IMG/VR virus record: IMGVR_UViG_3300038673_000134
Span: 1-39,908 of that record
Reading direction: 5' to 3' (one strand)
Origin: a virus
Taxonomy: Duplodnaviria; Caudoviricetes
Length of the DNA: 39,908 nucleotides
Notes under the pieces: generated by a model
Told to the model about the DNA's origin: nothing
Databases searched by the model: none
The model's input: only the letters and a program-made list of their open reading frames with translations
Translations under genes and position numbers: made by a program
In this document: piece after piece, positions 19,693 to 39,908 of the stretch
How positions within the stretch are numbered: position 1 is the stretch's first letter
How the letters are laid out: the number at the start of each line of letters is the position of its first letter

Positions 19693-19695
19693 CAG

Positions 19696-20076
19696 ATGGC
19701 CGTCTTACCTGAAAGCATGGACAGACTGGACGTGCAGGACACCGAGGGCAGCCTTTCCAAGGTGCAGGAGTATATCCGCTACATGGGAGAGCGGATCGAA
19801 TTCTCATTTCGGAACATGACAAAGACCGTCAGCGCGGCCGGCGTCTCCAGTGCAGAGCTGTATATCCTGATCCAGGCGCAGGCCCAAACCCTCGCAGCGC
19901 TGCAAAGCGCGGTCAACAGCATGGCCGGAAACATCACGACCCTGCAAAGCAGCGTGGCTGCGCTGCAAACCGCCGCGAGCGGCATCAACGACCGACTGGA
20001 CGGGATCGACGACAGCATAGCAGCTCTGGACGAGCGCGTGACCGCCCTGGAGAACCCCACCACACCAACACCCTGA
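19696..20076 (+). CDS. coiled-coil virion protein (tail needle/plug-like)
   Basis: heptad repeats LQSAVNSM..ITTLQSSVAALQT..LDERVTALE. Confidence 0.5.
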   Translation: MAVLPESMDRLDVQDTEGSLSKVQEYIRYMGERIEFSFRNMTKTVSAAGVSSAELYILIQAQAQTLAALQSAVNSMAGNITTLQSSVAALQTAASGINDRLDGIDDSIAALDERVTALENPTTPTP

Positions 20077-20099
20077 CGAAGAAACGGAGGTAACTTAAA

Positions 20100-21617
20100 A
20101 TGGCAGTATCTCAATACGATAAAGAGCATCTTTCCACAGACCAGCAGAGACAGATCGACGCGATTACCAAGGCTGCGGAGGCCGGCAGCATGGACTGGGG
20201 AACGGCGCACAGCCTTGCAGAGGGCATTCGTTCCCAGGCGGCCGGCGGCGGGTATTCAGGCGGCGCTGCCGGCGACGAATACAATCCGCTCTCCGGCGGA
20301 AACGGCATTGTCGGAGGCAACAGCGGGAACGGAGGCGGCGGAAACCTGAACAATACGGACTGGTACGGGCAGTTCCTCTCCGGCATTCAGAACGGCGCCG
20401 ACTACGACACCCTCAATTCCTACTATCAGAACCGCGTTGCAAAGACCGCGCCCGGAAGCGAGTATGAGCAGTTCGCCGGCGATGATGCTATGGGCTTCAT
20501 GCAGCAGTACCTTTCCAGTATGCAGCAAAACGACGCGATGCAGCAGATCAAGGACGCCATTGCCCAGATCCAGAACCAGAATTATTCCTACGGCGGGAGC
20601 GCATGGGACAGCAAGCTGGACGAGCTGGCGCAGGCCGCCATCGACTTCAACTATAACGACTGGACGAACAGCGATCAGTACAAGGCCCTTGCAGACCGCT
20701 ACGGCTACCAAGGGAACCTGACCATGCAGGACGTGCTGGGGCAGATCGCAAGCCGCACAGGCGGCCTTGCAAGCTCCTACGCGACCACCGCAGCGCAGCA
20801 GCAATACAACGACTACATGGCACAGCTGGAATCCGTAGCGCGTGGCCAGTACGCCGACGAAAAGAACAGTATGCTGGACAACGCCACCCTTGCCCAGAAC
20901 ATGAGCGAGACCGAATACCGGAGGTATCTGAATGAGCTATCTGCAAAGCAGAGCGGCCAGAGCGAGGCCCTGAACGCCTTGTTTAACATGATGGGAATTC
21001 AGACCGACGCTGCAAACAACGCCTATAACCGCCAGCAGAGCGAGGACAAGACGGAGTACAGCCAGGCGCTCCAGAAAGCCAAGACGCTTGCTGCGGCTGG
21101 CGACTTCTCCGGGTATGCGGCCCTGGGATACACGGACGCGGAGATTGCAAACCTCAAAACCGCCTATGACAAGGCGCAGGCGGCCTCTGTTTCGTCCGGT
21201 TCAAGAAGCAGATCCTCCGGCTCCGGCGGTTCGTCCGGCGGAAGCACGTCCGGAATCGTGGACACCATGGTTGGCATGGGGAGCGACACGAAAGCCTATG
21301 AGTATCTTCTGGGGCTTGGTTACACAAACGCCAAGACGGAACAGCTTTGGAGCTTGTATGAATCGGCGAGAGACGACGGCGGCTCCGGGAGCAGCACCCC
21401 GTCGTTCAGCGATTACAGCGAGGCTGTGGCCTACATGAAGCAAAACGGAGTGCCCAGCGGAAACGCGTCCGGGGCCATGACAAAGAGCGAGTGGGCACGC
21501 CGGAAAGCCTCTTATCAGAAATATGGGCAGGGCTGCACGGAGGTTACGTCTTATGACAGCTACTCCGAGTACCTGACGGCTTACGTTCAGTATTGCATCG
21601 AAACCTACGGAGGATAA
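20100..21617 (+). CDS. putative internal virion / DNA ejection protein
   Basis: G/S/Q/A-rich helical 505 aa; RBS GGAGG; lies between nozzle and giant protein. Confidence 0.55.
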   Translation: MAVSQYDKEHLSTDQQRQIDAITKAAEAGSMDWGTAHSLAEGIRSQAAGGGYSGGAAGDEYNPLSGGNGIVGGNSGNGGGGNLNNTDWYGQFLSGIQNGADYDTLNSYYQNRVAKTAPGSEYEQFAGDDAMGFMQQYLSSMQQNDAMQQIKDAIAQIQNQNYSYGGSAWDSKLDELAQAAIDFNYNDWTNSDQYKALADRYGYQGNLTMQDVLGQIASRTGGLASSYATTAAQQQYNDYMAQLESVARGQYADEKNSMLDNATLAQNMSETEYRRYLNELSAKQSGQSEALNALFNMMGIQTDAANNAYNRQQSEDKTEYSQALQKAKTLAAAGDFSGYAALGYTDAEIANLKTAYDKAQAASVSSGSRSRSSGSGGSSGGSTSGIVDTMVGMGSDTKAYEYLLGLGYTNAKTEQLWSLYESARDDGGSGSSTPSFSDYSEAVAYMKQNGVPSGNASGAMTKSEWARRKASYQKYGQGCTEVTSYDSYSEYLTAYVQYCIETYGG

Positions 21618-21629
21618 GGAGGGGCAAGC

Positions 21630-27600: not shown

Positions 27601-30600
27601 TGGCACAATGGGGCAATGAGTTCCTTTCCTACTTCCCGGCAGCAAAGATCAAGGTTGTTGAAAAAGGCAGCCTGACGGCGAAGAACCGCAAGATCTTCGC
27701 AAACCAAATCGCCACCGGCGACTTCGACGCCGTGATTATGAGCTACGAGCAATTTGAAGCCATACCCATGAGCGATACGAGCCTGGAAGCATTCTACCAG
27801 GAGCAGATCGACAGCCTGGAGCAGGCAATCCTGGAGAGCAAGCGGGCAAAGGGCAAGGATCCCAGCGTGCGCGATATGGAACGCTCCAAAAAATCACTTG
27901 AAGCCAAGCTGAAGAACCTGGTCAATGAGGGCAAAAAGGACGTTGACAATATCGACTTTGAGCAGCTTGGCATTGACGCCCTGTTCGTAGACGAGGCCCA
28001 CAACTTCAAAAACCTGTTCTATACCACCAAAATGCAGGGCGTGGCCGACATGGGCGACAAGAGCGGATCCCAGCGTGCGCTTGACCTCTACATGAAAGTG
28101 CGCTATCTGCAAAGGCTGAACGGCGGGCGCGGCATTGTCTTTGCGACCGCGACGCCGGTTATGAACAGCGTTGTTGAGCTTTACACCATGCAGCGCTATT
28201 TGCAGCCGGATCTTCTGGAGGCAAAGGGTCTTACCAACTTCGACGCCTGGGTAAACCAGTTCGGAGAAGTCACCAGCATTCGCCGCATGAAGCCCAGCGG
28301 AACCGGCTACGACATTAAGCAGAGCCTGTCCCGCTATAAGAACATGGCCGAAATGCAGCAGATGTTCCGCGCCTTTTCCGATGTGATCGTTGACGCGGAG
28401 GAGCTTCCGTACCTGGATATTCCCAAGATGAAAGGCGGAAAGCGAATTGTCGTCGAGTGCGAACCCGGCGACTTCCAACAGGCGTTCATGCAGCAGTTGA
28501 GCGAACGGGCAGAAAGCCTGAAAGGCAGCGGCGGCACAAAGGGCGGCGACCATATCTTCAAGATCATGGGCGACGGCAAGATGGTAAGCTATTCCCAGCA
28601 CATGATTAACCCGGCTCTCCCCTACGAGGACGAGGGCAAGATCATGAAGTGCGTGGACAACCTCTACCAGATATGGAAGCGCAGCGCCACCTTTACCGGC
28701 AAGGACGGAAAGGCACAGAAGAACGGCACGCAGCTTGTTTTCTGTGATCGTGGCGTGCCCGGAGGAAAGGACGCCGAACGCGGCGCCTGCATCTATTCCG
28801 ACATGAAGAACCTGCTTGTCGGTATGGGCGTGCCGGAAGAACAGATTGCCTTTATCCATGACGCGGCCAGCGACGCCGCAAAGGAGGAGCTTTTCAAGAA
28901 AGTCAATGACGGAGACGTGCGTATTTTGATCGGATCCTCTGACAAGATGGGCACCGGCATGAACGTGCAAAAGCGCATTGTGGCCCTGCATGAGCTGAAC
29001 GCGCCAGACCGCCCCGGCGACCTTGAACAGAACGAGGGCCGCGCACTCCGCCAGAAGAACCTGAACGCGGAAGTCGAGGTTTATTCCTACGTCACGAAGC
29101 GCACCTTCGACAGCCGGCAATGGGACACGCTGAAACGAAAGGCAATCTTTATCCACCAGGTTATGTCCGGCAACTACACCGGGCGCGAGGCTGCCGGCGA
29201 CGGTGACCTTGCCACCAGCGCAGCGGAGATCTCCGCCATTGCCTCTGACAATCCCCTTATCCTGGAACAGTTCGATATTTCCGAACAGATCAACACCCTG
29301 GAAAACCTGGAACGTGCCCACACCAAGGAGGCCAACGAGGCCAAGCAAAAGATCGTTAAGGCCCGCGCAGAGATTGCCCAGGACGAGGAATACCTTACCC
29401 GCTACAAGAACGACCTTGCAAGCCGCCAGGACACCGCAGGAGACAAGTTTAAGCTAACCCTGGACGGTAAGACCTACGACGAGAGAAAGACCGCAGGCGA
29501 GGCGTTAATCGGAAAGTCAAAGGACGTCCTGAAAATTGGCGACATTGAGAACAACACCGATGTTGGCAGCTTCGCCGGCTTCAAGCTGCTTCTAACCAGC
29601 AAAGGCGATATGCTGCTGCGTGGCGAGGCCCAATACAGAGGCACGGTCAATATGCAGAGCGCAGCCGGCACTATCCAGGCACTTGAGGCGATCCCGAAGC
29701 GCCTGGACGGCATCGTTGCAAACACCCAGGCCCGCCTTTCTGAAAACAAGGCGTCTATCGCCAAGCTGGAGAAAGCGGCGGCCGCTCCCTTTGACCGCGC
29801 AGACGAGCTTGTGAAACTGCGTGCGCGGGAAATGGAGATCATGACCGAGCTGAACCCGGAGAGCAACCGCGACATGGGCGTTGACGATGCGGACGGCGGA
29901 GCGGATCTGCTGGTCGATACCGAGAACACGGCAGACACCGTTTCCCAGGAGATCAGCAGCGCCAAAACCTCCATCAAACAGATCCCGGCCCTTTTCAAGG
30001 ATAAGAACGTGAAGTTCGGAAAAGTGAATATCGACATTGGCGGCGGCAAGTTCGACCTGGCGACGGACTACCTTAAATCCATCGGGACGCTGAACCTGGT
30101 ATTTGATCCCTACAACCGCAGCGAGGCCGTGAATGCCGACACCCTGAATTATCTGCGTGGAGGGTATAAGGCAGACACCGCCACTTGCGCCAACGTCCTC
30201 AACGTGATAAAGGAGCCGGCGGCCAGGGCGAATGTCATTCTTGAAACCGCAAAGGCGATCCTGCCCAATGGCCGTGTTTATTTCATGGTCTACGAGGGCG
30301 ACGGAAGCGGCGTCGGGAAAGAAACCTCCTCCGGCTGGCAGAACAACCGCAAGACCCGCGACTACATGGACGAGATCAGGAAGTATTTCAGAGGCGTGCA
30401 GCGCCAGGGCAAGCTGATTACAGCCACGGAGCCGAAAGGGAACCTGCCCAAGGCCTCCTGGGAAGTCTCACCCGGTAAGGGCGTTCTCTACAGCAAGGAC
30501 GTTACCAACGACGGCATACCGCACCCGGAACGCTGGACGGCAAAGCGCGTAGGCAGCAGCGACACGGCGCCAAAGCCGGTCTCTGATATTATCGCGCAGA

Positions 30601-33600
30601 TCCGGCACGACTTCGGTCTGAATGTTACCTATGGCCACGTGCGCGGCACAGGCGTGCGCGGGCAGTTCAACCCACGCGATAAGGGCATCAGAAGCCGGAT
30701 CGCAAACGACCTGCCCACCGTGTGCCACGAGTTGGGGCACGCCCTGGACGACCGCTTCTCCATTCTGGGCGACGATCTCACCAAGGAAATGCACGCAGAG
30801 CTGGAAAAGGCCCTGGGCGATCTCTCTGCCGGCTATAAAGAGGATCAGTACGACAGCGAGGGCCTTGCGGAGTTTCTGCGGCAGTTCCTGCAAAACAGAG
30901 AGACGGCCGCCATTGACTACCCGGCATTTACTAAATATCTGTTGGGGAAACTGGACGGGAAAACCCTCGCAACCTTGGAACAGCTTGCAGACGACGTAAA
31001 CGCCTATTATTCCCTGGACGCCGACAGCGCAGAGAGCAGCGTTCGCCTGCGCGAGGAGGGCGGCCCGGATCTTCGGACACATGGAGAGAAGATCCGGCAG
31101 ATGGGCAACGAGTTTTACCAGGCGTGGATCGACGCAAACCACGGCATTAAGCTATTCGACGAAGCCAACGGCAGCAGCGTCTATAAGCTGGCGACCAACA
31201 GCGCATACAGCGACGCCATAGCCGGCCGGATCATCACCAGCGATCTGACGGGTACCGACGGCCAGTACATCGGCCCCGGCCTGAAAACTGTCCTGCACGG
31301 CGTAAACACCCGCAGCAAGAAGGAATACAAGGCCTTTGGCGAATACCTCATTATGAGGCACGGCCCGGAATACCTGGCAGAGGGCAAGCGCGTATTTGCT
31401 GACGACCGAAAGAACAGCACCGCCTGGATGCAGCGCCGGCAGATGGAGCTGGAGCAGCAGTACCCGCAGTTTGAAGCAGCAGCAAAGCGCCTGTACCAGT
31501 TCCTTGCAGATCTCAATAAGGCGTGGGGCGTTGAAACACAGGTGATCGGCGCGGATCAGCTGGCCGAATGGCAGCAGCGCTGGCCCAATTATGTGCCGTT
31601 CAACCGCTCTTTGGCAAAGACCGGCCGTGCCGGAGCGAAGCGAGGCTACGCGAACCAGGCAAGCCCGTATAAGCGGGCAAAGGGCAGCGGCCTTGATATT
31701 GTCCACCCCGTTGATAATATCATTGACCAGATCGTTCTGCTGGTAAACGTGGGCGTTCGGAACAACGTCATGTATGAGCTGCGGAACGCTGCCCTGGATA
31801 AGGGCGCCGACGCCTCCCTGATGGAGAAGATCCCCACGCCGATGGTTCCGAAGTCTTTTGACATGACCGGCGTAAAGGTCCAGCTGGGCGAAGCGTTCAA
31901 GGACAGCGACCTGGAAGCCGACGACAAGATCATGGCCGACAAGATTATATCCAACCTGTCCGACGTGATGCTGCAATTCTCCAGGGGCAAGGCCCACGGG
32001 AACGTCGTCACCGTCATGGTGAACGGCAAGCCGGAGTTCTGGAAGATCAACGATAAGCTGCTGCTGGAGAGCATTACTTCTATGACGCCGGCGAAGCTCC
32101 ACGGCTGGCTGGAAGCCTACGCATTCACCACCCGCTTCATGACTGCCAACATCACCGGCAACAACCCCGTCTGGTCTATCTTCTCCAATGCGCCGCGTGA
32201 CCTTGGTACGTTTGCCGTTTTTTCAAAGGATAAGCGCCCATTCAAGGCCCTGGCAGCCATCGGAAGCGGCTACGTCAATGCTTTCAACGAGCGGTTCAGA
32301 GGCGGCCGAGGAATTAACCCGCTGTACGCAGAATACCTGGCAATGGGCGGCGGGCACACCTCCGCTTACTCTGCGGACGCTGACCTGGCACGAAAGGCAA
32401 GGAAGAAGCTGACGACCACCACCGCGCAGCGCGTCCTGGACACCATGAACCCCGTCAACTGGGTAACGTTCATCAGCGACACCATCGAGCAGGGGCCACG
32501 CTTTGCGACCTACAAGCTCATGCGCCAGGCGGGCCTGTCCCCGCAGGAGGCCTTTTACGAGGCAATGGACGTCACCACCAATTTCCGCCGCGCCGGCTAT
32601 ATGTCCCGCGACGTGAACAAGGCAGTTCCGTTTTTCAACGCCAGCGTGCAGGGCATCGACAAATTCAACAGGTACTTCACTGGCGAGGACGCCCCAAAAG
32701 GAGAACGGGCAAAGACTGTGCGGAACCGCTGGATCGCGTTCTTCACAGCAAGTGCCATCCTGGCAGCCATCATGTACGCGCTGAACAGCCACGACGACGA
32801 GAGCGCAAAGGACTATCAGCAGCTTTCCAATTACACAAAGAACAGCTATTGGTGCATCCCCCTGGGCGACGGAAAGTATTTCACAATTCCAAAGCCGCGT
32901 GAGCTGGCCGTTATGACTTCGTTCTTTGAAACCTGCATGGAAAGCTACATCGGTGGAAACGATCACGCTTTTGACGAGTTCTACGACTACGCAACAGACA
33001 ACTTCCTGCCCAGCGTAGTATCCGACCTGGCGCAGCTTCCCAGCAACATTGCCCAAGCAGGCACACAGCAGGGCCTGATCGACACCACTGCGGGCGCCCT
33101 TGGAAGCGCCGGCCTATTTGGTGTAGGCGCCTATATGGTTGCCAACCGTGACTTCCTGGGCAAACCGATAGAGAGTGCGACCATGCAGTACCTGGAGCCG
33201 AAAGACCGCTACAACAGCAGCACCAGTAAAATGGCCTACTGGATGGGGCAGGCGTTCAATTTAAGCCCGGCAATGGTTGACTACTTCGGGAACCAGGTGC
33301 TTGGCTACGTCTGGAAAGTTCCGAGAGCATTGTTCCCCGTGGGGCAAGACCCGGACTACAGCCTTGGCGTGAAGTCCACCTATTTAAAGGACAACGCCTA
33401 CTCCCAGGATCTTATCAACTGGATGTACGACCAGGCAGACGGATCTGCGCAGGCGAAAAAGAGCGACCCGGAGAACATGGACAAGGCCATTACCGCGAAG
33501 CTCGACAGCAGCATGACCGACTTTTACTCCAACTTCAACACCCTCAATAGAGACAAGGCAGACACCAACGAGCGCCGTCACACACGCCAGGTGGTGCTGG

Positions 33601-34163
33601 ATATGGTGAATGAGTATCGGAAAGCCAGCGAGAGTGGCGAGACCACGGCCGCCCAGGACGCCGTTTACGCCGTCGTCAGAGCTACCGGCGAAACCTCGTA
33701 TATGCCGTCGGTTATGAACACCTACGTCAAGGACGGCAACGACGTGAAGTACGCCCTGACTGACGAACAGTATGTGACCTACCAGACCAAGTACCTGGCC
33801 CTTTACTGGGACTATGCGGAGCGGAACCTTTCCACCGGCATAACCACGAAAGAAAAGGCAGCCATTCTCCAAGCGGCAAAGGACGTTGCCAAAGAGAGAG
33901 CCACAAATACTATGCTGACGCGGATCGGCGCAAGCAACACCGCATACGCGACCGATTACGCCGGCGTGGCAGACAGCGACGTGATCCAGTTTAAGGCCCA
34001 GACCGACCTTGCAAACGACGACGGAAGCCTGAAACAAGAGGAGGTAATCGGTATACTTGAGACAATGATCAGCGAGGGCCTTGGCTACGAGGACGCCTAC
34101 ACCCTGTTCCACTCCCGCTATGACAGCGACAAGAACAACCCCTGGAAGAAATACGCACCGTAA
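21630..34163 (+). CDS. giant DarB-like polyvalent virion protein (J-domain, N6-adenine MTase, SNF2 helicase, second MTase-like domain, zincin metallopeptidase, LPD38-like C-terminus)
   Basis: HPD 23319; LLEPSAGVG ~25430 and GNVPF 25632; HRVGAGKT ~27495 and DEAH 27990; NIDIGGG..FDPYN ~30030-30115; HELGH 30726. Confidence 0.85.
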   Translation: MSFSDWTKKRKQQNASANQDTTKEQSGTQATASVAASSIARDDKPSSFGEWTRKSQGEAAWRDEEVGFNDWLDSLSKFFTRMSDDYSKRDGVYQSADTMGTYLDDTGRGIDALSQKSDAYKQYFTAYKSMYDELYGEDAVNQILSSLDVGSKYLSNVRESLNKESDYWAQFQDQDAYDQYQKYLKWQAVPQASDFAEKSQYKTTYNPDNEHFNAWTGTYTDTGFGDVYYDYINGDETAQSRTMLNDVNAGGPGSLYATTHDYWKDLPEDVVKTFNYIYATEGSEAAYEYIGATIQKTYTGIEALGLGFLQGTGTASLSAALGKAYAGISGDDEAGDRTDDWYNQLLQETAAASTEHPGMATAGQATGTLSLMAGIATGIGAIEGFSSLPAIAQSIISGGASLGGTQAIQGIGGAATGNQSWGDYALDVGTNTLSGAAGGALSSGIGTWGTKFLQGKGLAGNQLARTVVAGLSGTGFVSGSNAVSQPAEYLRDPENYEFDMSQFAEEALVGFAFSAFGYLSRNYTTDPGTAAQMDADDALVNKYFKGMTQEEATAAYRQYAKQYHPDLYASADAATQQAMNATMAEVNAAYARFNVTHGAAAYQAAQEAKASGNTTAYEQAASEFQQSAAALQAAATQGGLATAETAEAAQILNAVASGMAGGMASEAVTGAVPAVTEQPTAPAVQETTTPAPTAQEITTQLVQAGVEPTEAESLGSSMAALMNGEEISGNKAGAIAENEVAVSILENTTGQQINTDAPLSEVKAAIRSLASPAETQEAAPAGVDTALEERAAAAAETAVQPSDIDAVRDFASTLEKAGSKALTTMFNDGQNAADYVQEMMQEYNAGRSGAEFTGGSTHLVINQTQAEAAYLAGQADAHNATETVLQPSEKQGTIKAEKKTFVPAKKADWAAHDVQYFVPGKKTPIAYSTISDRDLLGVLADAHPDATISDLRDYINYGEEAKRIVDAYVANGYGDENANKYFTYDGNKLAAKVGETVKEDTTNGRQAGADRQGVRPSEAGNDGTGSAERRGGGLRDGGGEHSGGEPGAGRGRGAAELGTATEVPVGNERIEAKVREVQSGAEPSGNSSGNDNDVRGDGGTRAPATGEKVGAEAEGDAGRVEPAPLEAVTPEQQSQQKADLANQEQPKGNNFVIQEKGGVKIPTTPKSRYTANVAAIKTLRNIMAGDRLATPAEQEILAKYTGWGGISNAFDGKNGFEKEFAQLQKLLDDGEYKTAKASILDAYFTEPEIIRAMYNGLASLGFTGGRLLEPSAGVGRFIGAMPQDMLSGVRSFTAVELDKITGSIAKYLYPNADVRVQGFEAAKIPQEYMDVAIGNVPFGNIAVADKAYPAAVTKSIHNYFIAKSLDKVRPGGIATFITSTGTMDAENSAARDFFMKQADLIGAIRLPNTAFQSAGTPVVTDILVFKKREAGTPYKGEAFTEVGHKGWTEPGHYGNYAINEYFIKHPEMLLGKAAYGTGQYGRTIVTYDPLDSRYSLQTQIERAFAKIDAKMEYPVQKSGEEIRAEIKADAGKAKPGTIVKKNGKFYKAENGALVETADIAAKDAERMTSVLEIRDTARKLLDAQVNGAGAGEIDIYRKNLNTLYDAFVKEHGILHKQGNQRLVSKDGDSAFIMALEDYNKDTGVGAKAAIFTKNTVAPIQAVTHADSVDQAMTITLNESGTVDLARIAQLTGGTVDSVKSELLNRELAYLNRNGDPEPATQYLSGNVRAKLRDAEALAEADPAYKRNVDALKKVIPADIAPEDVSVRLGATWIPDSVYSQFASEMLGGGTTYDYKRGQVPSVEVTYNRQVGKYFVTINDNWMRSRPENTTEWGTSDRPLVGSENASILPAALNNKTVSVWRTVGDNRVLDIQATQAAQEKMAKVLAEFSRWLWKDAGRRAELGKQYNDTFNNTVTPKYDGSNLTVNGSNPDMKMRPHQLDAVQRIISSGGNTLLAHRVGAGKTYEMAAAAMKLRQLGVVKKPVFIAPNHLVAQWGNEFLSYFPAAKIKVVEKGSLTAKNRKIFANQIATGDFDAVIMSYEQFEAIPMSDTSLEAFYQEQIDSLEQAILESKRAKGKDPSVRDMERSKKSLEAKLKNLVNEGKKDVDNIDFEQLGIDALFVDEAHNFKNLFYTTKMQGVADMGDKSGSQRALDLYMKVRYLQRLNGGRGIVFATATPVMNSVVELYTMQRYLQPDLLEAKGLTNFDAWVNQFGEVTSIRRMKPSGTGYDIKQSLSRYKNMAEMQQMFRAFSDVIVDAEELPYLDIPKMKGGKRIVVECEPGDFQQAFMQQLSERAESLKGSGGTKGGDHIFKIMGDGKMVSYSQHMINPALPYEDEGKIMKCVDNLYQIWKRSATFTGKDGKAQKNGTQLVFCDRGVPGGKDAERGACIYSDMKNLLVGMGVPEEQIAFIHDAASDAAKEELFKKVNDGDVRILIGSSDKMGTGMNVQKRIVALHELNAPDRPGDLEQNEGRALRQKNLNAEVEVYSYVTKRTFDSRQWDTLKRKAIFIHQVMSGNYTGREAAGDGDLATSAAEISAIASDNPLILEQFDISEQINTLENLERAHTKEANEAKQKIVKARAEIAQDEEYLTRYKNDLASRQDTAGDKFKLTLDGKTYDERKTAGEALIGKSKDVLKIGDIENNTDVGSFAGFKLLLTSKGDMLLRGEAQYRGTVNMQSAAGTIQALEAIPKRLDGIVANTQARLSENKASIAKLEKAAAAPFDRADELVKLRAREMEIMTELNPESNRDMGVDDADGGADLLVDTENTADTVSQEISSAKTSIKQIPALFKDKNVKFGKVNIDIGGGKFDLATDYLKSIGTLNLVFDPYNRSEAVNADTLNYLRGGYKADTATCANVLNVIKEPAARANVILETAKAILPNGRVYFMVYEGDGSGVGKETSSGWQNNRKTRDYMDEIRKYFRGVQRQGKLITATEPKGNLPKASWEVSPGKGVLYSKDVTNDGIPHPERWTAKRVGSSDTAPKPVSDIIAQIRHDFGLNVTYGHVRGTGVRGQFNPRDKGIRSRIANDLPTVCHELGHALDDRFSILGDDLTKEMHAELEKALGDLSAGYKEDQYDSEGLAEFLRQFLQNRETAAIDYPAFTKYLLGKLDGKTLATLEQLADDVNAYYSLDADSAESSVRLREEGGPDLRTHGEKIRQMGNEFYQAWIDANHGIKLFDEANGSSVYKLATNSAYSDAIAGRIITSDLTGTDGQYIGPGLKTVLHGVNTRSKKEYKAFGEYLIMRHGPEYLAEGKRVFADDRKNSTAWMQRRQMELEQQYPQFEAAAKRLYQFLADLNKAWGVETQVIGADQLAEWQQRWPNYVPFNRSLAKTGRAGAKRGYANQASPYKRAKGSGLDIVHPVDNIIDQIVLLVNVGVRNNVMYELRNAALDKGADASLMEKIPTPMVPKSFDMTGVKVQLGEAFKDSDLEADDKIMADKIISNLSDVMLQFSRGKAHGNVVTVMVNGKPEFWKINDKLLLESITSMTPAKLHGWLEAYAFTTRFMTANITGNNPVWSIFSNAPRDLGTFAVFSKDKRPFKALAAIGSGYVNAFNERFRGGRGINPLYAEYLAMGGGHTSAYSADADLARKARKKLTTTTAQRVLDTMNPVNWVTFISDTIEQGPRFATYKLMRQAGLSPQEAFYEAMDVTTNFRRAGYMSRDVNKAVPFFNASVQGIDKFNRYFTGEDAPKGERAKTVRNRWIAFFTASAILAAIMYALNSHDDESAKDYQQLSNYTKNSYWCIPLGDGKYFTIPKPRELAVMTSFFETCMESYIGGNDHAFDEFYDYATDNFLPSVVSDLAQLPSNIAQAGTQQGLIDTTAGALGSAGLFGVGAYMVANRDFLGKPIESATMQYLEPKDRYNSSTSKMAYWMGQAFNLSPAMVDYFGNQVLGYVWKVPRALFPVGQDPDYSLGVKSTYLKDNAYSQDLINWMYDQADGSAQAKKSDPENMDKAITAKLDSSMTDFYSNFNTLNRDKADTNERRHTRQVVLDMVNEYRKASESGETTAAQDAVYAVVRATGETSYMPSVMNTYVKDGNDVKYALTDEQYVTYQTKYLALYWDYAERNLSTGITTKEKAAILQAAKDVAKERATNTMLTRIGASNTAYATDYAGVADSDVIQFKAQTDLANDDGSLKQEEVIGILETMISEGLGYEDAYTLFHSRYDSDKNNPWKKYAP
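24282..24310 (+). promoter_or_regulatory. candidate internal sigma70-type promoter inside giant gene
   Basis: TTGCAG-17 bp-TACAAT. Confidence 0.4.
24637..24990 (+). CDS. nested alternative-frame gene (117 aa acidic helical protein)
   Basis: AAGGAGG at 24621-24627, 9 nt before ATG; protein-like composition while the host frame here is G/R/E low-complexity. Confidence 0.6.
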   Translation: MADRQELIDREYDRVKREMMEQGLRSDEAADYAMEAANTLAASLGPDEAEALPSLERQLKYQWEMSESKQKYEKFRVAPNQVETALEMTMMFEGTEEHERQQLVKKWVQKLKETPAE

Positions 34164-34164
34164 A

Positions 34165-34200
34165 AAGAGACCGCCTGGCGCTATGCCCGGCGGTTTTCTT
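34165..34200. terminator. bidirectional intrinsic terminator
   Basis: aagagaccgcc...ggcggttttctt between convergent genes, A-tract before and T-tract after. Confidence 0.75.
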
Positions 34201-34687
34201 ACTCAATATCATAATCGTACATACAGGCATTATACCCCTGTTTCCATCCTTCTTCGCGTCCTTCTTCATACCCCTCATTGTGCCACTCTTCATAGTAGTT
34301 TTCTTGCAAGGAACCTATGGCAGAATAGTACCCATCTGAATATCCAGCTTCCTTTGCGGCGCTGGCAATCCCAAATAGCACTAATGCGGCGGCCACGAAA
34401 GCGCAAATGTACTTTACGTCCCTCCATCCGCTTCCGTCTTTGAAATCTTCAATGAACCCCAAAACAAGGGGGACAATGGTGATCCAAATGAACAGCACCG
34501 CAGTTATCCCACACACAATCAGGAAAAGCAGGTCATTATATTCCGTATACAACGCATACAGAGCGGAACCGATCGTTACAACTAACAGAGCTACCCCGAA
34601 TACCGTTCTTCGTATTGACAGCTCCTTTTGATGCTTGTAATACCACTTCACATAAGGATCGCTTAAATCTCTATCTTTGTTCGCCAT
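34199..34687 (-). CDS. membrane protein (about 3 TM), moron-like
   Basis: only clear minus-strand gene, AT-richer than flanks, RBS GGAGGTG, C-terminal GxxxG repeats. Confidence 0.75.
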   Translation of the reverse strand: MANKDRDLSDPYVKWYYKHQKELSIRRTVFGVALLVVTIGSALYALYTEYNDLLFLIVCGITAVLFIWITIVPLVLGFIEDFKDGSGWRDVKYICAFVAAALVLFGIASAAKEAGYSDGYYSAIGSLQENYYEEWHNEGYEEGREEGWKQGYNACMYDYDIE

Positions 34688-34717
34688 AGTTCACACCTCC
34701 AAAAAATATTCCTGTTT

Positions 34718-34749
34718 TGGGCGAAAAGCCCGCGTTCCTTTGCTATGCT
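34718..34749 (+). promoter_or_regulatory. putative late promoter 3 (upstream of lysis cassette)
   Basis: TGGGCGA-N16-TGCTATGCT. Confidence 0.65.
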
Positions 34750-34774
34750 TTGAAAAGAAAGGCTGGTGTTGGCG

Positions 34775-35092
34775 ATGGGACAGTACATAATTCCGGGAGT
34801 ATTCACGCTCCTGGTTGCCATTATAGAGGCGATTGCCGCAAAGGAGCGTAAGGATACGAAAAAGGAAAACGAGAAAACCGAGCAGCGGGCCGCGCTGCGT
34901 GCCGAGGAAAGCCGGCTGTCAATGCAGATGATGAGTGCAACGCTCCAATTATCCGTCGTGACGGCAAATGCCCTTACCGGCGGGCACAACAACGGCAACG
35001 TGGAAGCGGCCAAGGAAGCTGCTGAGGAGGCCATGACGGAGTACACCGCCTTTATCAATAAGATTGCCTCAAAAGAAGTGTCGAAATTATGA
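34775..35092 (+). CDS. membrane-anchored lysis-region protein (holin-associated)
   Basis: N-terminal hydrophobic helix then coiled coil; first gene of the lysis cassette. Confidence 0.55.
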   Translation: MGQYIIPGVFTLLVAIIEAIAAKERKDTKKENEKTEQRAALRAEESRLSMQMMSATLQLSVVTANALTGGHNNGNVEAAKEAAEEAMTEYTAFINKIASKEVSKL

Positions 35093-35367
35093 GAAATTCG
35101 TCGCGCAAGCGGAAAAAGATCAATCACCTGTTCGCAAAGCTGACCGTGGCCTGGTGCGTAGCCTGGGGCACGGCTTGCAGCGTTTACGCGCTGCGTATCC
35201 TCTCACGGACGGGTAACGACGCCACCGGCCTGCTGGGCGTGATCCTGGCATTTCTGGGCGGGGAGCTGCTTTTCATGTGCCTGCGCACCATTCTTGCGGA
35301 GAAGCCGGACGGCAAGAAGAACGAGACCAAGCCCCAGGAGGGGCAGGAAAATAAACGAGACTGTTAG
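35089..35367 (+). CDS. two-TM membrane protein (holin-like)
   Basis: basic N-terminus, two hydrophobic segments, charged tail. Confidence 0.55.
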   Translation: MRNSSRKRKKINHLFAKLTVAWCVAWGTACSVYALRILSRTGNDATGLLGVILAFLGGELLFMCLRTILAEKPDGKKNETKPQEGQENKRDC

Positions 35368-35379
35368 GAGGAAATTATC

Positions 35380-35817
35380 ATGCAAAAGTACATCGGGACA
35401 AAGGTGATCCAGGCAGAGCCGGCCGAAAGGGACGGCAAGGACGGCTACAAGGTGGTCTATGCGGACGGCTACGAAAGCTGGTCTCCCAAAGACGTGTTCG
35501 AGGGGGCATATCTTCCGTTGACCGTCAATGCAGATCTGAAAACGGACAAGCCCAGCATCAGCCAGAGCATGGTTGACGATTTCATTGCGGAAGTGCATAC
35601 CTCAACTCTCGGAGAGAAATGCACGGTTGTCCGCGCCGTCCTCCGCAACGGCTTTGAGATTGTCGAAAGCAGCGCCTGCGTTAGCGCTGAAAACTACGAC
35701 GAGGCGCTGGGCAAGAAAATCTGCCTGGGCAAGATCAAAGACAAGGTGTGGTTCCTGCTGGGCTTCTTACTCCAGACGGGAGTAAGTGGCGTAAACCGTG
35801 AGCGCCTTATCGGCTGA
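35380..35817 (+). CDS. two-domain protein: YIGTK..GY.V.Y.DGY.SWSPK domain + N4 Gp49/Sf6 gp66-like domain
   Basis: C-terminal TVVRAVLRNGF..VESSACVSAENYDE.LG..IC...I..KVW.LLGFLLQ. Confidence 0.75.
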   Translation: MQKYIGTKVIQAEPAERDGKDGYKVVYADGYESWSPKDVFEGAYLPLTVNADLKTDKPSISQSMVDDFIAEVHTSTLGEKCTVVRAVLRNGFEIVESSACVSAENYDEALGKKICLGKIKDKVWFLLGFLLQTGVSGVNRERLIG

Positions 35818-35831
35818 AAGGAGTATTCTCT

Positions 35832-36146
35832 ATGGACATCACCACCATCATCAACGCTGCCATCATGCTGATCGCTGCGCTGGTCTCCGCTTTTGTGATC
35901 CCCTGGATCAAGAAAAAGGCGGCCGCCTGCGACCTGGAGCAGATGGAGAAGTGGACGAGCATCGCCGTTTCCGCTGCCGAGCAGCTTTTCAAAAGCACCC
36001 AGGCAGAGGAAAAGAAGAAGTACGTTCTCAAATACATGGCTTCCAAGGGATATGACATTAACACGGAGGACGTGGAGAACGCCATCGAAGCCGCTGTGCT
36101 TTCGCTGCACAATGAGCTGTACGGAAGTGAGAGGGTAACAGAATGA
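35832..36146 (+). CDS. holin (LL-H family-like)
   Basis: single N-terminal TM, AV.AAEQ, KKKYV, IEAAV. Confidence 0.8.
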   Translation: MDITTIINAAIMLIAALVSAFVIPWIKKKAAACDLEQMEKWTSIAVSAAEQLFKSTQAEEKKKYVLKYMASKGYDINTEDVENAIEAAVLSLHNELYGSERVTE

Positions 36147-36826
36147 CAGAGCAGCAGATCCGCGAAAACGTCGTGGCTATCGCCAGATCATGGCTTGGCT
36201 GCAAGGAAAGCGACGGAACCCACCAGAAGATTATTGATCTTTACAACTCCCACAAGCCCCTGGCGCGTGGGTATGCCGTCAAGTATGACGACGCCTGGTG
36301 TGCCACCTTCGTATCTGCCGTGTTTATCAAGGCGGGCCTTACGGACATCGCACCGACGGAATGCGGCTGCGAGGCCATGATCAAGCTATACAAGAACCAC
36401 ACTGCCAGCAAGTGGGAGGAAAACGAGGCTATCACGCCGGAGATCGGCGATGTAGTTTTCTACGACTGGCAGGACACCGGTACGGGAGACAACACAGGCG
36501 CGGCCGATCACGTCGGCATCGTGGCTGCCGTTCTGGGAACCTCCCTTATTGTCATTGAAGGCAACTACTCCAACTCAGTCAAGGAGCGGACGCTTTCGTG
36601 CAACGGGAAATACCTGCGCGGCTATGGTAAGCCTGCGTACTCCACGAAAGCGGAGGCTGCCGGCACTGGAGACAATCCCACTGAATGGGCCAAGGAAGCA
36701 ACAGAGTGGTGCAAGGCCCAGGGCATCTTCAACGGCGATGGCCAGGGCAACTACGACTGGCAGAAGCCCATCACCCGCGAGGCCGTGGCGCAGATCATGT
36801 ACAACGCCCTGAAAGATAAACTGTAA
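36143..36826 (+). CDS. endolysin, CHAP domain + SLH-like binding domain
   Basis: WCATFVS, GDVVFYDW, HVGIV, IEGN; WAKEATEW...G..ITREAVA. Confidence 0.88.
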   Translation: MTEQQIRENVVAIARSWLGCKESDGTHQKIIDLYNSHKPLARGYAVKYDDAWCATFVSAVFIKAGLTDIAPTECGCEAMIKLYKNHTASKWEENEAITPEIGDVVFYDWQDTGTGDNTGAADHVGIVAAVLGTSLIVIEGNYSNSVKERTLSCNGKYLRGYGKPAYSTKAEAAGTGDNPTEWAKEATEWCKAQGIFNGDGQGNYDWQKPITREAVAQIMYNALKDKL

Positions 36827-36878
36827 TTGTTTTTTTTAGTATATCACGGCTTCGTAATGTTTTCAACCGCATATAAAC

Positions 36879-36912
36879 AAGAAAGAGGCGCCCAGGCGGG
36901 CGCCTCTTTCTT
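36879..36912. terminator. intrinsic terminator after lysis cassette
   Basis: perfect 15-bp stem aagaaagaggcgccc-aggc-gggcgcctctttctt. Confidence 0.85.
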
Positions 36913-36959
36913 CTATATTTTGTGGCTGCTGCTGACCTGGTATCACAAGGTTTACCGTA

Positions 36960-36989
36960 TTGACGAAGCCCGAAACATTATTATAAAAT
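36960..36989 (+). promoter_or_regulatory. sigma70-type promoter for the transposase gene
   Basis: TTGACG then TATAAA/TAAAAT at 16/18 bp spacing. Confidence 0.6.
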
Positions 36990-37014
36990 TAAGGCAACGA
37001 AAGGGGGCCTCGCT

Positions 37015-37413
37015 ATGCCGAGACTTACATGGAACGATAAGCTGACGATAGAGAAAATGCTAAAGCAGGGCTGCAAGGCGCCGGCTATCGCCCGGAAGAT
37101 CGGCGTAAGCGACCAGGCGATCTATGACGAGATCAAGCGCGGCCGCGTGGAGGTTCTCGACAGCGAGCTGCGCCCAGGTGAGACGCGCACCATCGTTTAC
37201 TACTGCCACCCGCGCTATCCTGGCGAGAGGGGAAGCAACGAGAAGCAGAATCAAATGATCCGCTGGTTCTTCCCGAAAGGGACGGACTTCACCCATGTTA
37301 CCAACCGTGCCGTTAAAAAGGTGATCGACTGGATCAACAACTACCCGCGCTTGCTTCTGGACTGGCACACGAGTAACGACCTATTCTCCGTTTTTCTTGC
37401 AAGCGTCGCCTGA
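37015..37413 (+). pseudogene. IS30-family transposase with in-frame internal deletion (132 aa)
   Basis: N-terminal HTH (IARKIGVS..AIYDEIKRG) joined directly to IS30 C-terminus (YYCHP..PGERGSNE..N..IR.FFPKGTDF...INNYPR). Confidence 0.8.
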
Positions 37414-37458
37414 CTTTTCGCAGGTTTCACGGGGAACACAAAAAATATTTTCAAAAAA

Positions 37459-37511
37459 TCCAAGTTTTACTCTTGACATTTGCAGCTGTAAATGCTACCG
37501 TAAAACTTGGA
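37459..37511. mobile_element. IS30-type abutted IR-IR junction (putative attP of phage circle) with junction promoter
   Basis: tccaagttttactcttgacatttgCA-gc-TGtaaatgctaccgtaaaacttgga; 26/25-bp imperfect IRs, 2-bp spacer; TTGACA-17-TACCGT with extended TG. Confidence 0.8.
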
Positions 37512-37564
37512 AACCACGAAGTGGTTCTCCAGGTTTTATTTTTCCCCGAAAGGAGGAGGTACGC

Positions 37565-37810
37565 ATGGCACGGCTGACCCTGAAAGACCGCAAGCAGCTC
37601 AAAAAGATGTACGACGCAGACGAGCGCACGATTGTGATGGCCGTTAAGCTGGGCTGCTCTACCACCGCCATTTATGACGAGCTGAAGCGCGGCTACGCCG
37701 GCACGGATGAGCTTGAACGGCCGGTCTACGACCCCGACCTTGCGCAGCGCAAGGTGAACGCCAATGTGAAGCGCTGCGGCGGCAAGAACCGCCGGAGGAC
37801 GCCGGTATGA
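37565..37810 (+). CDS. stand-alone IS30-type HTH protein (81 aa)
   Basis: RBS AGGAGGAGG; LTLKDR...KLGCS..AIYDELKRG..Y....AQ, paralogous to the N-terminus of 37015. Confidence 0.75.
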   Translation: MARLTLKDRKQLKKMYDADERTIVMAVKLGCSTTAIYDELKRGYAGTDELERPVYDPDLAQRKVNANVKRCGGKNRRRTPV

Positions 37811-38475
37811 GAGACGAGGAACTGCTTCAGCTCTATCACCGGCAGCGAAGCACCAGACTACAGCGCCGGAGGCGGCGCAGCAGAAAGCTATTGATTCTGT
37901 CCTTTGTTCTTCTCCTGGCGGCCCTGATCCTGGCTGTCTACGTCCGCGCAGACGCCGAAAAGCAAATGGCCGACAAGTTAGAAAAGGCAGCAGCGCCAAC
38001 GGTTCCAGTCACACAGGCGCTTGTGCTGCCGGAAGCGGATCAAGTAAACGCCGCCTATGACACCAAGGCGGCGGAGCCGGTTACATACGAGCTTCCCTCC
38101 CCTGTTGAGGTGATCTCCAAGGCCGTCTACGGCGAGGCGCGTGGCTGTTCCATAACGGAGCAGGCAGCCGTCGTCTGGTGCATCTGCAACCGCGTGGACG
38201 CCGGCTACGGCGACCTGGTGGAAGTCACCACCGCGCCGCACCAGTTCCACGGCTACGACGAGGACAACCCCGTGACGCCGGAGATCAAAGCCCTGGTACA
38301 GGACGTTCTAATCCGCTGGCGCATGGAAGAAAGCTGCATCGGCAACGTGGGCCGTGTGCTCCCGAAAGAATACCTGTTCTTTTCCGGCGACGGCCGGCGC
38401 AACTACTTCCGGACCGAATGGAACGGCGGGAGCACCTGGGACTGGTCCCTTGCAAGCCCGTATGAGGAGGGATAG
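37807..38475 (+). CDS. membrane-anchored SleB/Hydrolase_2-like cell wall hydrolase
   Basis: TM helix after Arg-rich start; VYGEARG, VVWCICNRV, QFHGY, YLFFSGDG..NYF. Confidence 0.75.
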   Translation: MRDEELLQLYHRQRSTRLQRRRRRSRKLLILSFVLLLAALILAVYVRADAEKQMADKLEKAAAPTVPVTQALVLPEADQVNAAYDTKAAEPVTYELPSPVEVISKAVYGEARGCSITEQAAVVWCICNRVDAGYGDLVEVTTAPHQFHGYDEDNPVTPEIKALVQDVLIRWRMEESCIGNVGRVLPKEYLFFSGDGRRNYFRTEWNGGSTWDWSLASPYEEG

Positions 38476-38477
38476 GC

Positions 38478-38921
38478 GTGGGATTAAAGGCCGTCCCCCT
38501 TGAGCGTCCGGATGCAAACGCATTTGTTGACCGCCTGCACCGCCACCATAGCAGCCGCATCGGAGACAAGTTTCGCATCGGTTGTGCTTGCGGCGACAAG
38601 CTCGTAGGCGTTGTCCAAGTCGGGCGTCCTGTTGCAAGGGCGCTATGCGACGGGAAAACGCTTGAAGTTCTTAGACTATGCACGGACGGGACGCCTCACG
38701 CCTGTTCCTTCCTCTATGGTGCCGCCGCACGCGTTACGCGGGAGTTGGGCTACCAGAAAATCATCACCTACATTTTGCGTGACGAGCCTGGGACAAGCCT
38801 TGTGGCGTCTGGATGACATAAAGAGGCAGACATCCGAGGGAAATCATGGGATTGCCCCAGTAGGCCAAGAAACACCACTTCCCCCACCTGCGATAAGCAG
38901 CGATGGGCAAAAGACCTGTGA
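38478..38921 (+). pseudogene. XF1762-like (GNAT-like fold) protein interrupted by TGA at 38814-38816
   Basis: HRHH, VGRPVAR, LEVLRLCTDG, CSFLYGA, ITYIL..E.GTSL.ASG* then in-frame SW.CPSRPR...K.RW to TGA 38919. Confidence 0.7.
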
Positions 38922-38933
38922 AGGAGGCAGGGC

Positions 38934-39659
38934 ATGAACCATTTACAGGAAAAGCGGCTGGCGCTGGAACTGACACAGCCGCAGGTTTCGGCAAGGCTCA
39001 AAGAGGTTGAGCCGAGGGCCGACGTGGGCATGGTCTCCCGCTATGAAAAGGGCGTGTGCCTGCCGACCGGCCCGCAGCTCTCCGTTCTGGAGGAGCTTTA
39101 CGGCGCTGCCAGAACGGAGTTGTACGACGCGGAGGACCTGGACCTGTCACAGCCTGACGTCGTAAGGCTGCTGCGGCCCCGCTGCCCTATCATGGACGTT
39201 TCTCTTTACTCAAAGATTGAGAACGGCCATTGTTTACCCAACAAAGAGACCATGAAAGCCCTGGAGGCCGCCTTGCAAGCCCCTGTGTCGGTTTTGTTTG
39301 AGCCGGACGAGCTGGCGGCCCTCCCGGACGACGAGGGCCAGGAAAAGGCACTATGCGTCAATCCCTACTATGCCATGCTGGCAACCGCGATCCCCTACGG
39401 CCGGCGGAACGCCATCACCCGGCAGGCGCTGGCCGCAAAGCTGGGCATGAATGACCGCGCAGCACGCAAAGCAATCGAGGAGGCCAGAGCGGCCGGCCTG
39501 CTGATTATGTGCGAACAGAACGGCAGGGGCTACTACCAGAGCGACGACCCCGTTGAAATGCGCTGCCAGTACCAGCAGGACACCAACCGGGCAATGAGTA
39601 TTCTGAAACGACGCAAGCCGCTGCGAGACGCCTTAAAGGCCGCCGGGCAGCGCGTATAA
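38934..39659 (+). CDS. multi-HTH regulator (two XRE-like HTH + winged HTH)
   Basis: LTQPQVS..VSRYEKG.CLP; LSQPDVV..YSKIENG.CLP; AITRQALAAKLGMNDR..R..IE...GYY. Confidence 0.7.
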   Translation: MNHLQEKRLALELTQPQVSARLKEVEPRADVGMVSRYEKGVCLPTGPQLSVLEELYGAARTELYDAEDLDLSQPDVVRLLRPRCPIMDVSLYSKIENGHCLPNKETMKALEAALQAPVSVLFEPDELAALPDDEGQEKALCVNPYYAMLATAIPYGRRNAITRQALAAKLGMNDRAARKAIEEARAAGLLIMCEQNGRGYYQSDDPVEMRCQYQQDTNRAMSILKRRKPLRDALKAAGQRV

Positions 39660-39683
39660 ATCAATTTTAGGAGGACAAGCATC

Positions 39684-39908
39684 ATGGACGAGAAACAGGA
39701 AATGACCCCGCAGCAGCACGAAATGGCCCTTTATGAGGGCGCTGTTCAGCGCTTCGGCAGTATGGCGCAGATCGACCAGGCCATTGAGGAAATGGCAGAG
39801 CTGACCGTAGCCCTGAACAAGTACAAGCGCTTTATCCGCTTCCGCCAGGGTGACGAGGAAACCGTTCGGCAGCGCGTGGCAGAGGAGCGGGCCGACGTCA
39901 GTATCATG
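39684..39908 (+). CDS. MazG-like protein, 3'-truncated by window end
   Basis: RBS AGGAGG; MDEKQ..MALYE..QIDQAIEEMAELTVALNKYKR..EERADVSIM. Confidence 0.65.
   Translation, partial: MDEKQEMTPQQHEMALYEGAVQRFGSMAQIDQAIEEMAELTVALNKYKRFIRFRQGDEETVRQRVAEERADVSIM
39768..39830 (+). repeat. 63-bp direct repeat, copy 2 (copy 1 at 58-120)
   Basis: 61/63 identity with 58-120. Confidence 0.9.

What the first reader, a model, noticed from the sequence alone, without database searches (positions are those of the whole stretch)
37459..37511. Phage appears to be an IS30-bounded circle: abutted IS30-type ends form the attP
Seen: 45 bp after an IS30-family transposase gene lie two imperfect inverted repeats head-to-head (...CA-gc-TG...), 26 and 25 bp, sharing TGyAAATG and GTAAAACTTGGA, with a 2-bp spacer; no tyrosine/serine integrase is visible in the window. 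Known: IS30-family elements have ~20-30 bp IRs starting TG, make 2-bp target duplications and form IR-IR junctions with 2-bp spacers as transposition intermediates; as I recall, gut phages mobilised by IS30 transposases have been reported recently ('IScream' phages). Inference: this is the excised form, the whole ~40 kb genome behaves as the transposon, and GC is the host target remnant.
Basis: partly seen in the sequence, partly recalled or inferred. Interest (0 to 1): 0.88.

Follow-up and report, generated by a model that had tools for sequence, protein, structure and literature searches.

The report
IS30-mobilised phage with dead transposase
These 53 bases are the joined ends of a bacterial virus of a published kind that inserts itself with an IS30-type transposase; its relatives insert with a 15-base (not 2-base) duplication just upstream of host promoters, the joined ends form a predicted promoter that integration would split, and this copy has lost the catalytic core of its transposase, so it likely cannot integrate unaided.

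Summary
The junction is real: 26- and 25-bp inverted ends around GC, 45 bp after an IS30-type gene, with no integrase in 136 ORFs scanned. It is the attP-like joined form of a Lagaffe/IScream-type phage. Close relatives break exactly at 37484 and 37487, and 35 of 36 related junctions have a 2-bp spacer of variable sequence. Two corrections. (1) The target duplication is 15 bp, not 2 (24 of 28 elements; 14-16 bp in all; single copy at two empty sites), and insertion lies 25-27 bp upstream of a host sigmaA -35 box (28 of 33 flanks; shuffles at most 6). (2) This genome's transposase has an in-frame 636-bp deletion removing two of three catalytic residues. It is reproduced in read-derived contigs of one sample, so the phage likely cannot integrate alone. 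The joined ends assemble a -35/17-bp/-10 promoter facing a conserved, selected 81-aa HTH gene and the early genes, a candidate excision-coupled switch (untested). The class is published (2018, 2025). I did not find promoter targeting or the split promoter in print, but this scan noted both earlier on other DNA. About 2 kb of the genome may be missing.

The parts
37459..37484 (.). Right end (IRR) of the phage element, 26 bp; carries a perfect -35 box (TTGACA) at 37473-37478
   Evidence: identical end followed by host DNA in integrated relative L055; contigs break at 37484 in runs X5 and X6
37485..37486 (.). 2-bp spacer (GC), inferred remnant of the host flank of the last insertion
   Evidence: 35 of 36 related metagenome junctions have 2 bp, 9 dinucleotides; TC and CC in close relatives; in the tandem dimer of G056 the spacer equals the last 2 bases of the left duplication
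37487..37511 (.). Left end (IRL), 25 bp; carries the -10 box TACCGT at 37496-37501, with TG just upstream, 17 bp from the -35 box
   Evidence: contigs with foreign left flanks start at 37487 in X2, X5, X6
37502..37543 (+). Terminator-like hairpin (37502-37537) and T run overlapping the predicted transcription start; its 5' arm is the inner part of IRL
   Evidence: a hairpin followed by a T-rich run in all 28 distinct left ends folded, no shuffle control; not listed by the simple terminator scan
37565..37810 (+). 81-aa stand-alone HTH_38 protein, paralogue of the transposase N-terminus; ribosome-binding site at 37550-37559
   Evidence: HTH_38 and phrog_11420; 34% identical to residues 1-84 of P0001; homologues 79-96 aa, dN/dS 0.12-0.26 in 17 homologue pairs
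37015..37413 (+). IS30-family transposase remnant (132 aa): N-terminal HTH fused in frame to the C-terminal 77 aa by a 636-bp deletion near 37169-37175
   Evidence: X3 relative has 667 letters where the window has 31; joint spanned with 0 differences by X1 record 1 and X2 record 10
36960..36989 (+). Predicted sigmaA promoter of the transposase gene; no inner IS end lies upstream of the gene
   Evidence: only 3 near-copies of the IR core near the junction and 1 weak distant match in the window
36873..36918 (.). Bidirectional terminator hairpin closing the lysis genes, upstream of the transposase unit
37807..39908 (+). Early genes downstream of the junction promoter, continuing in relatives' gene order into window 1-5324 (MazG-like, RecE, RecT, replication initiator)
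   Evidence: same order across the window's break in L005, L009 and G001
1..39908 (+). Near-complete podovirus-like genome (terminase, P22-like portal, capsid, DGR, lysis); all recognised genes on the + strand; circularly permuted

Best explanation
The 53 bases are the joined (attP-like) ends of a Lagaffe/IScream-type phage whose lineage inserts as one IS30-type element with a 15-bp target duplication about 26 bp upstream of host promoter-like sites, whose joined ends form a predicted early promoter, and whose transposase in this genome has lost its catalytic core, so that it likely no longer integrates unaided. Shown: the ends, the 2-bp variable spacer, the exact break points, the 15-bp duplication, the fixed distance to a host -35/-10 pair, the absence of any consensus in the duplicated bases, and the 636-bp deletion. 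Inferred from IS30 biology: one end attacks 2 nt outside the other, and replication copies out a circle. Inferred here: the junction's -35 (right end) and -10 (left end) drive the small HTH gene and the early operon only in the joined form. The hairpin behind the left end would stop read-through from the host in the prophage. The HTH protein, a copy of the transposase's DNA-binding head, likely binds the ends and damps both the promoter and re-integration. The transposase likely finds its target through promoter-bound RNA polymerase. The deleted genome would propagate lytically or episomally, or borrow a relative's transposase.
For: Break points and spacers. Duplication: 19 of 22 elements with both ends on one contig have an exact 14-17-nt repeat at the tips, and 9 more pairs on different contigs were linked by such a repeat. 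Called lengths were 15 bp in 24, 14 in 2 and 16 in 2. Two empty sites hold one copy. 11 of the 19 same-contig elements hold a large terminase. Targeting: best promoter has its -35 at 25-27 nt in 28 of 33 left flanks (300 shuffles: mean 1.26, max 6), and 3 of the 5 misses have it on the right flank. No information content in the duplicated bases. Junction promoter: A and T at the two key -10 positions at 17-bp spacing in 25 of 29 ends, against 0-8 at other spacings. Five elements shift one base from the right end to the left and keep 17. The promoter score is higher joined than integrated in 27 of 27 (means 12.1 and 3.0). The same layout is in the published Lagaffe genome, with 16-bp spacing. 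HTH under purifying selection. Deletion spanned with 0 differences in two runs, at the depth of the flanking phage DNA.
Against: No integrated copy of this exact genome was found, so duplication and targeting are read from relatives; the nearest, L055, shows only the right end. 3 of 22 both-end elements have no repeat (G007, G200, G393). The window's -10 matches only 3 of 6 consensus bases, and the built-in scan listed neither the junction promoter nor the hairpin. 10 of 27 left ends have a TG-extended -10 that might work without a -35. Left tips were chosen partly by -10 match and six were set by hand, so the 17-bp test is partly circular. The HTH_3/HTH_11 gene at 38934-39659 could be a conventional repressor. 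No transcript data. X1 and X2 are one sample and may be the window's source. About 2.1 kb may be missing.
Confidence: 0.8

Rival explanations
1. The deletion is a library or assembly artefact, and the real phage has an intact transposase and cycles normally between prophage and circle.
For: X1 and X2 are one sample, possibly the source. The joint sits on a 7-bp near-repeat, 6 of 7 identical in the nearest intact relative, which template switching could use. Other core deletions are on ~1-kb contigs only.
Against: Two runs span the joint with 0 differences at depth 7.5-7.9, like the neighbouring phage contigs (6.8-9.6). The only full-length continuation laid in X1 is 12 letters different in 102 and at depth 2.2. 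The same 132-aa protein is on a 42,043-bp contig. The deletion keeps the frame.
Confidence: 0.12
2. The junction is the inner joint of a tandem prophage dimer in a chromosome, not a free circle.
For: Such a dimer exists in G056:C4, two 43-kb copies with a junction and one outer 15-bp duplication. The window has no closure.
Against: In X1 and X2 the contigs identical to the window run unbroken across the junction, and the X1 right-end contig that stops at the tip differs from the window (7 letters in 100); an X2 left end with a foreign flank is inferred to be a relative's because the identical contig is unbroken there. Contigs drop rare forms, so this is weak.
Confidence: 0.1
3. A conventional integrase lies in the ~2.1 kb missing between 39908 and 1, and the IS30 ends are now a relic.
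For: A longer contig encodes the same remnant protein, and the transposase here is dead.
Against: The gap falls inside MazG-like genes in the early operon. Relatives L005, L009 and G001 leave no room for an integrase between the double-HTH gene and RecE. The ends, hairpin and HTH gene are intact.
Confidence: 0.04
4. Canonical IS30 model of the first reader: active transposase, 2-bp duplication, GC as the whole target remnant.
For: 2-bp spacer and TG-starting ends as in E. coli IS30 (PMC9333248).
Against: 14-16-bp duplications in 28 elements, including G014, whose tips match the window's; catalytic core missing.
Confidence: 0.02

Closest known systems
IScream phages (Wirbel et al., Nature 2025, PMC12823448; seen: abstract, sections 9, 10, 29, term searches, 11 of 17 supplement files searched)
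   Same: No ordinary integrase; one outward IS30 transposase and a truncated copy at the other end; circular virion form; gut Clostridia hosts.
   Different: Here the outward transposase lacks its catalytic core. The paper treats the truncated copy as deprecated, whereas its homologues here are under purifying selection. The main text has 0 hits for 'inverted repeat', 'attP', 'target site', 'promoter' and 'direct repeat'.
Faecalibacterium phage Lagaffe (Cornuault et al. 2018, PMC5883640; seen: passages; genome MG711461 read)
   Same: IS30 transposase as integrase, then joined ends with -35, 2-bp spacer and -10, hairpin and small HTH gene; flanked by direct repeats; carries a DGR.
   Different: Myovirus of 48 kb with an intact transposase, 42% identical to P0001. 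The repeat length is in a figure that I could not see. The window is podovirus-like (P22-like portal).
E. coli IS30 minicircle and dimer junction with Pjunc (PMC9333248; seen: introduction part 1 and passages)
   Same: IR-IR junction with 2-bp spacing, copy-out-paste-in model, junction promoter.
   Different: IS30 duplicates 2 bp and its Pjunc drives the transposase. Here the duplication is 15 bp and the promoter faces an HTH gene and phage early genes.
IS1630 of Mycoplasma fermentans (via PMC3317919, passages only)
   Same: IS30 family with long duplications (16-26 bp).
   Different: Variable length and, by the title of the cited paper, targeted to inverted repeats; here nearly fixed at 15 bp and tied to promoters.
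TnGBS / ISLre2 / ISKra4 elements (PMC3942029; seen: section 12 and passages)
   Same: [quoted passage not shown]
   Different: Mutator-like transposases, 8-9-bp duplications, 15-17 bp upstream of -35, 6-10-bp spacers; ICEs and ISs, not phages.
Integration-dependent immunity switches of mycobacteriophages (PMC3694055; abstract only)
   Same: Integration itself rewires phage gene control.
   Different: Those switches use an integrase, repressor and cro. Here a promoter would be split by a DDE transposase, and this is untested.

Membership tests
IScream/Lagaffe-type phages | Tailed phage genome without tyrosine or serine integrase | tested here: met
   136 of 205 ORFs scanned, none found; about 2.1 kb may be missing
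IScream/Lagaffe-type phages | IS30-derived genes at both ends, one outward transposase and one truncated copy | tested here: met
   37015-37413 and 37565-37810 flank the junction
IScream/Lagaffe-type phages | Outward transposase with an intact DDE domain | tested here: not met
   in-frame 636-bp deletion removes both Asp motifs; close relatives are intact
IScream/Lagaffe-type phages | Transposase in the phage sub-clade of IS30 | tested here: inconclusive
   full-length proxies (P0001, G003) group with Lagaffe, Saumur and nd12 apart from plain ISs, but SH-aLRT 92 on a quick tree with long branches; the paper's own sequences were not included
IScream/Lagaffe-type phages | Integrated form, induction and virions | not testable with these tools
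   no integrated copy of this genome seen; shown only for relatives
Canonical IS30 (E. coli type) | About 26-bp imperfect IRs joined across a 2-bp spacer | tested here: met
Canonical IS30 (E. coli type) | 2-bp target duplication | tested here: not met
   14-16 bp in 28 related elements
Canonical IS30 (E. coli type) | Junction promoter | tested here: inconclusive
   sequence pattern conserved; activity not measured
TnGBS/ISLre2 promoter-targeting elements | Mutator-like transposase, 8-9-bp duplication | tested here: not met
   IS30-family protein; 15-bp duplication
TnGBS/ISLre2 promoter-targeting elements | [quoted passage not shown] | tested here: met
   28 of 33 left flanks of relatives at 25-27 nt

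The most novel reading that the evidence does not exclude
These phages use transposition itself as the lysis-lysogeny switch. Integration splits the main early promoter between the two ends and copy-out rebuilds it. A selected mini-copy of the transposase head sets the threshold. The transposase docks on promoter-bound RNA polymerase, so any Bacillota chromosome offers safe targets, which would explain the broad lysogenic host range. In-frame deletions of the catalytic core, seen with four different break points, would recurrently yield integration-dead, lytic-locked or helper-dependent offshoots such as this one.
Probability: 0.35. Interest if true: 0.8.

Novelty: new variant of a known kind. 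Interest (0 to 1): 0.55.

Why it matters
IScream phages are abundant in the gut and include a broad-host-range cluster, yet the papers that I searched do not define their ends, target rule or switch. A universal target (upstream of sigmaA promoters, with the 15 bases nearest the promoter restored by the duplication) gives a testable explanation of integration across host families without a conserved attB, and a possible integration tool for gut Clostridia. A promoter assembled by excision would be a simple kind of phage switch. This genome adds a natural transposase-null derivative that keeps the ends, hairpin and HTH gene, which suggests that they matter for gene expression as well as integration.

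Tried and rejected
Exact left-end pattern in metagenome contigs: 0 matches. No left end for the nearest relative G003 or for five viral records. No terminal repeat closes the window, and the end of the window has no match in GenBank phages. Complex prediction of transposase with sigmaA region 4 and alpha-CTD was not run because the queue was full, so RNA-polymerase contact is untested. Pseudo-IR targeting of the host -35 box was considered and rejected on geometry: the element's own tip lies 6 nt downstream of its -35, while target cuts lie about 11 and 26 nt upstream of the host's. Whether -35 or -10 fixes the distance could not be told (SD 0.64 and 0.68). The idea that the long elements lacking a Pfam terminase hit are conjugative was rejected: no PF02534 hit lies inside them, and all 5 fetched are phages. 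Empty-site search around G001 found no conserved flank. Ten left-end pattern hits (L102, L103, L111, L116, L119, L120, L123, L126, L133, L134) and two right-end hits (L140, L169) looked like chance matches and were dropped, as was L322. L414, L415, L418 and L439 looked short but are full length. The solved-structure search gave only generic HTH hits. The careful tree did not finish.

Full report
Observation. Scoring every window position for two 26-nt arms around a 2-nt spacer, only this site and the terminator at 36894 reach the observed score (2 of 39,848). The window is a 39.9-kb podovirus-like genome with all recognised genes on the + strand. Pfam on 136 of the 205 listed ORFs (PHROGs on 38) finds no tyrosine or serine integrase and no family on any minus-strand ORF tested. 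The record is linear and 95% complete and starts and ends in MazG-like copies 73% identical to each other. Relatives continue in the same order across this break (L005, L009, G001). The same remnant protein lies on a 42,043-bp contig, so about 2.1 kb may be missing.

The transposase is broken. ORF 37015-37413 is 132 aa. It matches only the two ends of the IS30 transposase profile, and alignment to 343-344-aa relatives shows about 212 residues gone, with both Asp motifs of DDE; the HTH and the Glu remain. A close relative in run X3 has 667 letters where the window has 31, i.e. 636 more. The joint lies on a 7-bp near-repeat. Contigs of runs X1 and X2 span the joint with no difference, at the depth of the neighbouring phage DNA. 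They are one sample and may be the window's source. X1 also holds, at lower depth, a related full-length transposase start. In-frame core deletions with three other break points exist in the protein collection (P0122/P0242, P0135, P0136); they come from short contigs and were not checked in reads.

The junction is the joined form of the ends. The nearest relative, L055 (83% transposase identity, a Papillibacter MAG), has the identical right end followed by host DNA exactly after 37484. Contigs in X2, X5 and X6 break at 37484 or 37487 with foreign flanks (one at 37486), and X3, X4 and X7 show TC or CC spacers. A metagenome scan allowing 0-6 bp returned 106 loci. My filter kept 37, and I dropped L322 (no transposase or HTH). 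Of 36, 35 have a 2-bp spacer in 9 dinucleotides and one has 3 bp, while the 69 unrelated hits spread over 0-6 bp. Many of these contigs are the same few phages. In a tandem dimer (G056) the spacer equals the last two bases of the left duplication, as a copy-out model predicts (PMC9333248); this is one case.

The duplication is 15 bp. A search of 401 genomes of G001's family found the transposase in 51, and an HTH profile located left ends. Of 22 elements with both ends on one contig, 19 have an exact 14-17-nt repeat starting at the right tip; G007, G200 and G393 have none. Nine further pairs on separate contigs were linked by such a repeat, so they inform on length only. Called lengths are 15 bp in 24, 14 in 2 and 16 in 2; six tips were set by hand. 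G014 has tips like the window's and a 15-bp repeat. Two relatives of G203 show the empty site with one copy. Eleven of the 19 hold a large terminase. Three long ones had no hit with three Pfam models and were not fetched, and five of 2.5-19 kb had none. Plain multi-copy ISs of 1251 and 1278 bp in G277 and G221 also make 15- and 13-14-bp repeats (4 of 5 copies read in each), so the trait is older than the phages. Long repeats are known for IS1630 (16-26 bp; PMC3317919 passages), and Lagaffe was noted as 'surprisingly' flanked by direct repeats (PMC5883640 passages).

Insertion targets promoters. Reading away from the left tip, the best sigmaA-like promoter (approximate matrix recalled from memory) has its -35 at 25-27 nt in 28 of 33 flanks; 300 shuffles give mean 1.26 and max 6. 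Three of the five misses have it at the same distance on the right side (3 of 27 right flanks). The duplicated bases carry no consensus; the signal is the -35, the -10 and an A-tract. Loose ends of close relatives in X2 and X6 show the same placement, and the G277 IS copies show it by eye on their right side. The known parallel is TnGBS/ISLre2, an unrelated Mutator-like family proposed to contact RNA polymerase (PMC3942029). That contact is an inference here; the complex prediction could not be run because the queue was full.

The junction builds a promoter. TTGACA (37473) lies 17 bp from TACCGT with TG upstream. It is the third-best + strand site in the window (score 10.5), while the best site inside the early region alone scores 7.8. 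Across 29 ends, the key A and T of the -10 are in place at 17-bp spacing in 25, against 0-8 at other spacings, and five elements move one base between ends and keep 17. The test is partly circular because left tips were chosen with the -10 in view, though in 18 of the 27 pairs the exact repeat left no choice. Joined scores exceed integrated scores in 27 of 27. Against this: the window's -10 is only 3 of 6, the built-in scan lists neither promoter nor hairpin, and 10 of 27 ends have an extended -10. Behind the -10, all 28 distinct ends fold into a hairpin followed by a T-rich run, which loses 3-13 kcal/mol if the transcript starts at the junction promoter (no shuffle control). The next gene is an 81-aa HTH_38 paralogue of the transposase head. 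Homologues are 79-96 aa with dN/dS 0.12-0.26 in the 17 pairs close enough to score; the window's own copy is not among them. The Lagaffe genome has the same layout with 16-bp spacing. A junction promoter is known for IS30 itself.

Mechanism. Most likely the lineage lives as a 40-kb IS30-type element: copy-out gives a circle with a 2-bp bridge, the bridge completes the early promoter, and paste-in with a 15-bp stagger upstream of a host promoter splits it again. The steps of chemistry, promoter activity, HTH binding and RNA-polymerase docking are inferred. This genome has lost the catalytic core and so likely persists without integrating, or with a helper.

Known and new. The class is in print: Lagaffe (2018) and IScream (PMC12823448). 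A quick tree places full-length proxies with Lagaffe, with modest support. I file the window as a defective variant because the intact-DDE feature is not met. I did not find promoter targeting, a stated 15-bp length, the split promoter or a function for the small HTH in searches, or in term searches of PMC12823448, PMC12247996, PMC12934698 and PMC5883640. After my own tests I found that this scan had noted the duplication, targeting, split promoter and selected HTH on other genomes; that is not independent support.

Noticed in passing
window 13100-16982: Diversity-generating retroelement: variable region 15344-15476 at the end of a tail gene, template 15588-15720, reverse transcriptase 15579-16982; all 12 differences fall at template adenines.
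   Followed up: yes
window 21630-34163: 4177-aa DarB-like polyvalent protein with methylase, SNF2 helicase and LPD38 domains.
   Followed up: no
window 36866-36838 (minus strand): The strongest sigmaA-like promoter of the window points antisense into the endolysin and holin genes; possibly silences lysis genes.
   Followed up: no
window 39684-39908 and 1-300: Two MazG-like copies, 73% identical, at the contig ends; relatives have one or none. Tandem duplication or strain variants that blocked closure.
   Followed up: partly
window 38478-38816: Mom-like DNA modification gene matches only positions 21-142 of a 245-position profile and ends at a TGA, so it may be truncated.
   Followed up: no
G056:C4 46.5-132.6 kb (L189, L218, L244): Tandem double prophage with an inner end-to-end junction and one outer 15-bp duplication, like an IS30 dimer.
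   Followed up: partly
G043:C3, G213:C16, G161:C10, G281:C5, G240:C19: Elements of 2.5-19 kb with the same ends, HTH gene and 15-bp duplication but no terminase hit: satellites, episomes or remnants.
   Followed up: no
P0122, P0242, P0135, P0136, P0132: Other in-frame core deletions of this transposase, and one 99-aa fusion of the small HTH start to the transposase C-terminus.
   Followed up: partly
L004, L005, L009, L011, L058, L062 downstream of the left-end hairpin: A 150-210-nt leader with shared motifs lies before the HTH gene in the window's closest relatives but not in the window; possibly a structured RNA.
   Followed up: no
G277:C1 and G221:C1 (L259-L266): Plain multi-copy IS30-family elements with 13-15-bp duplications; the G277 copies have a promoter-like -35 26 nt from the right end.
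   Followed up: partly
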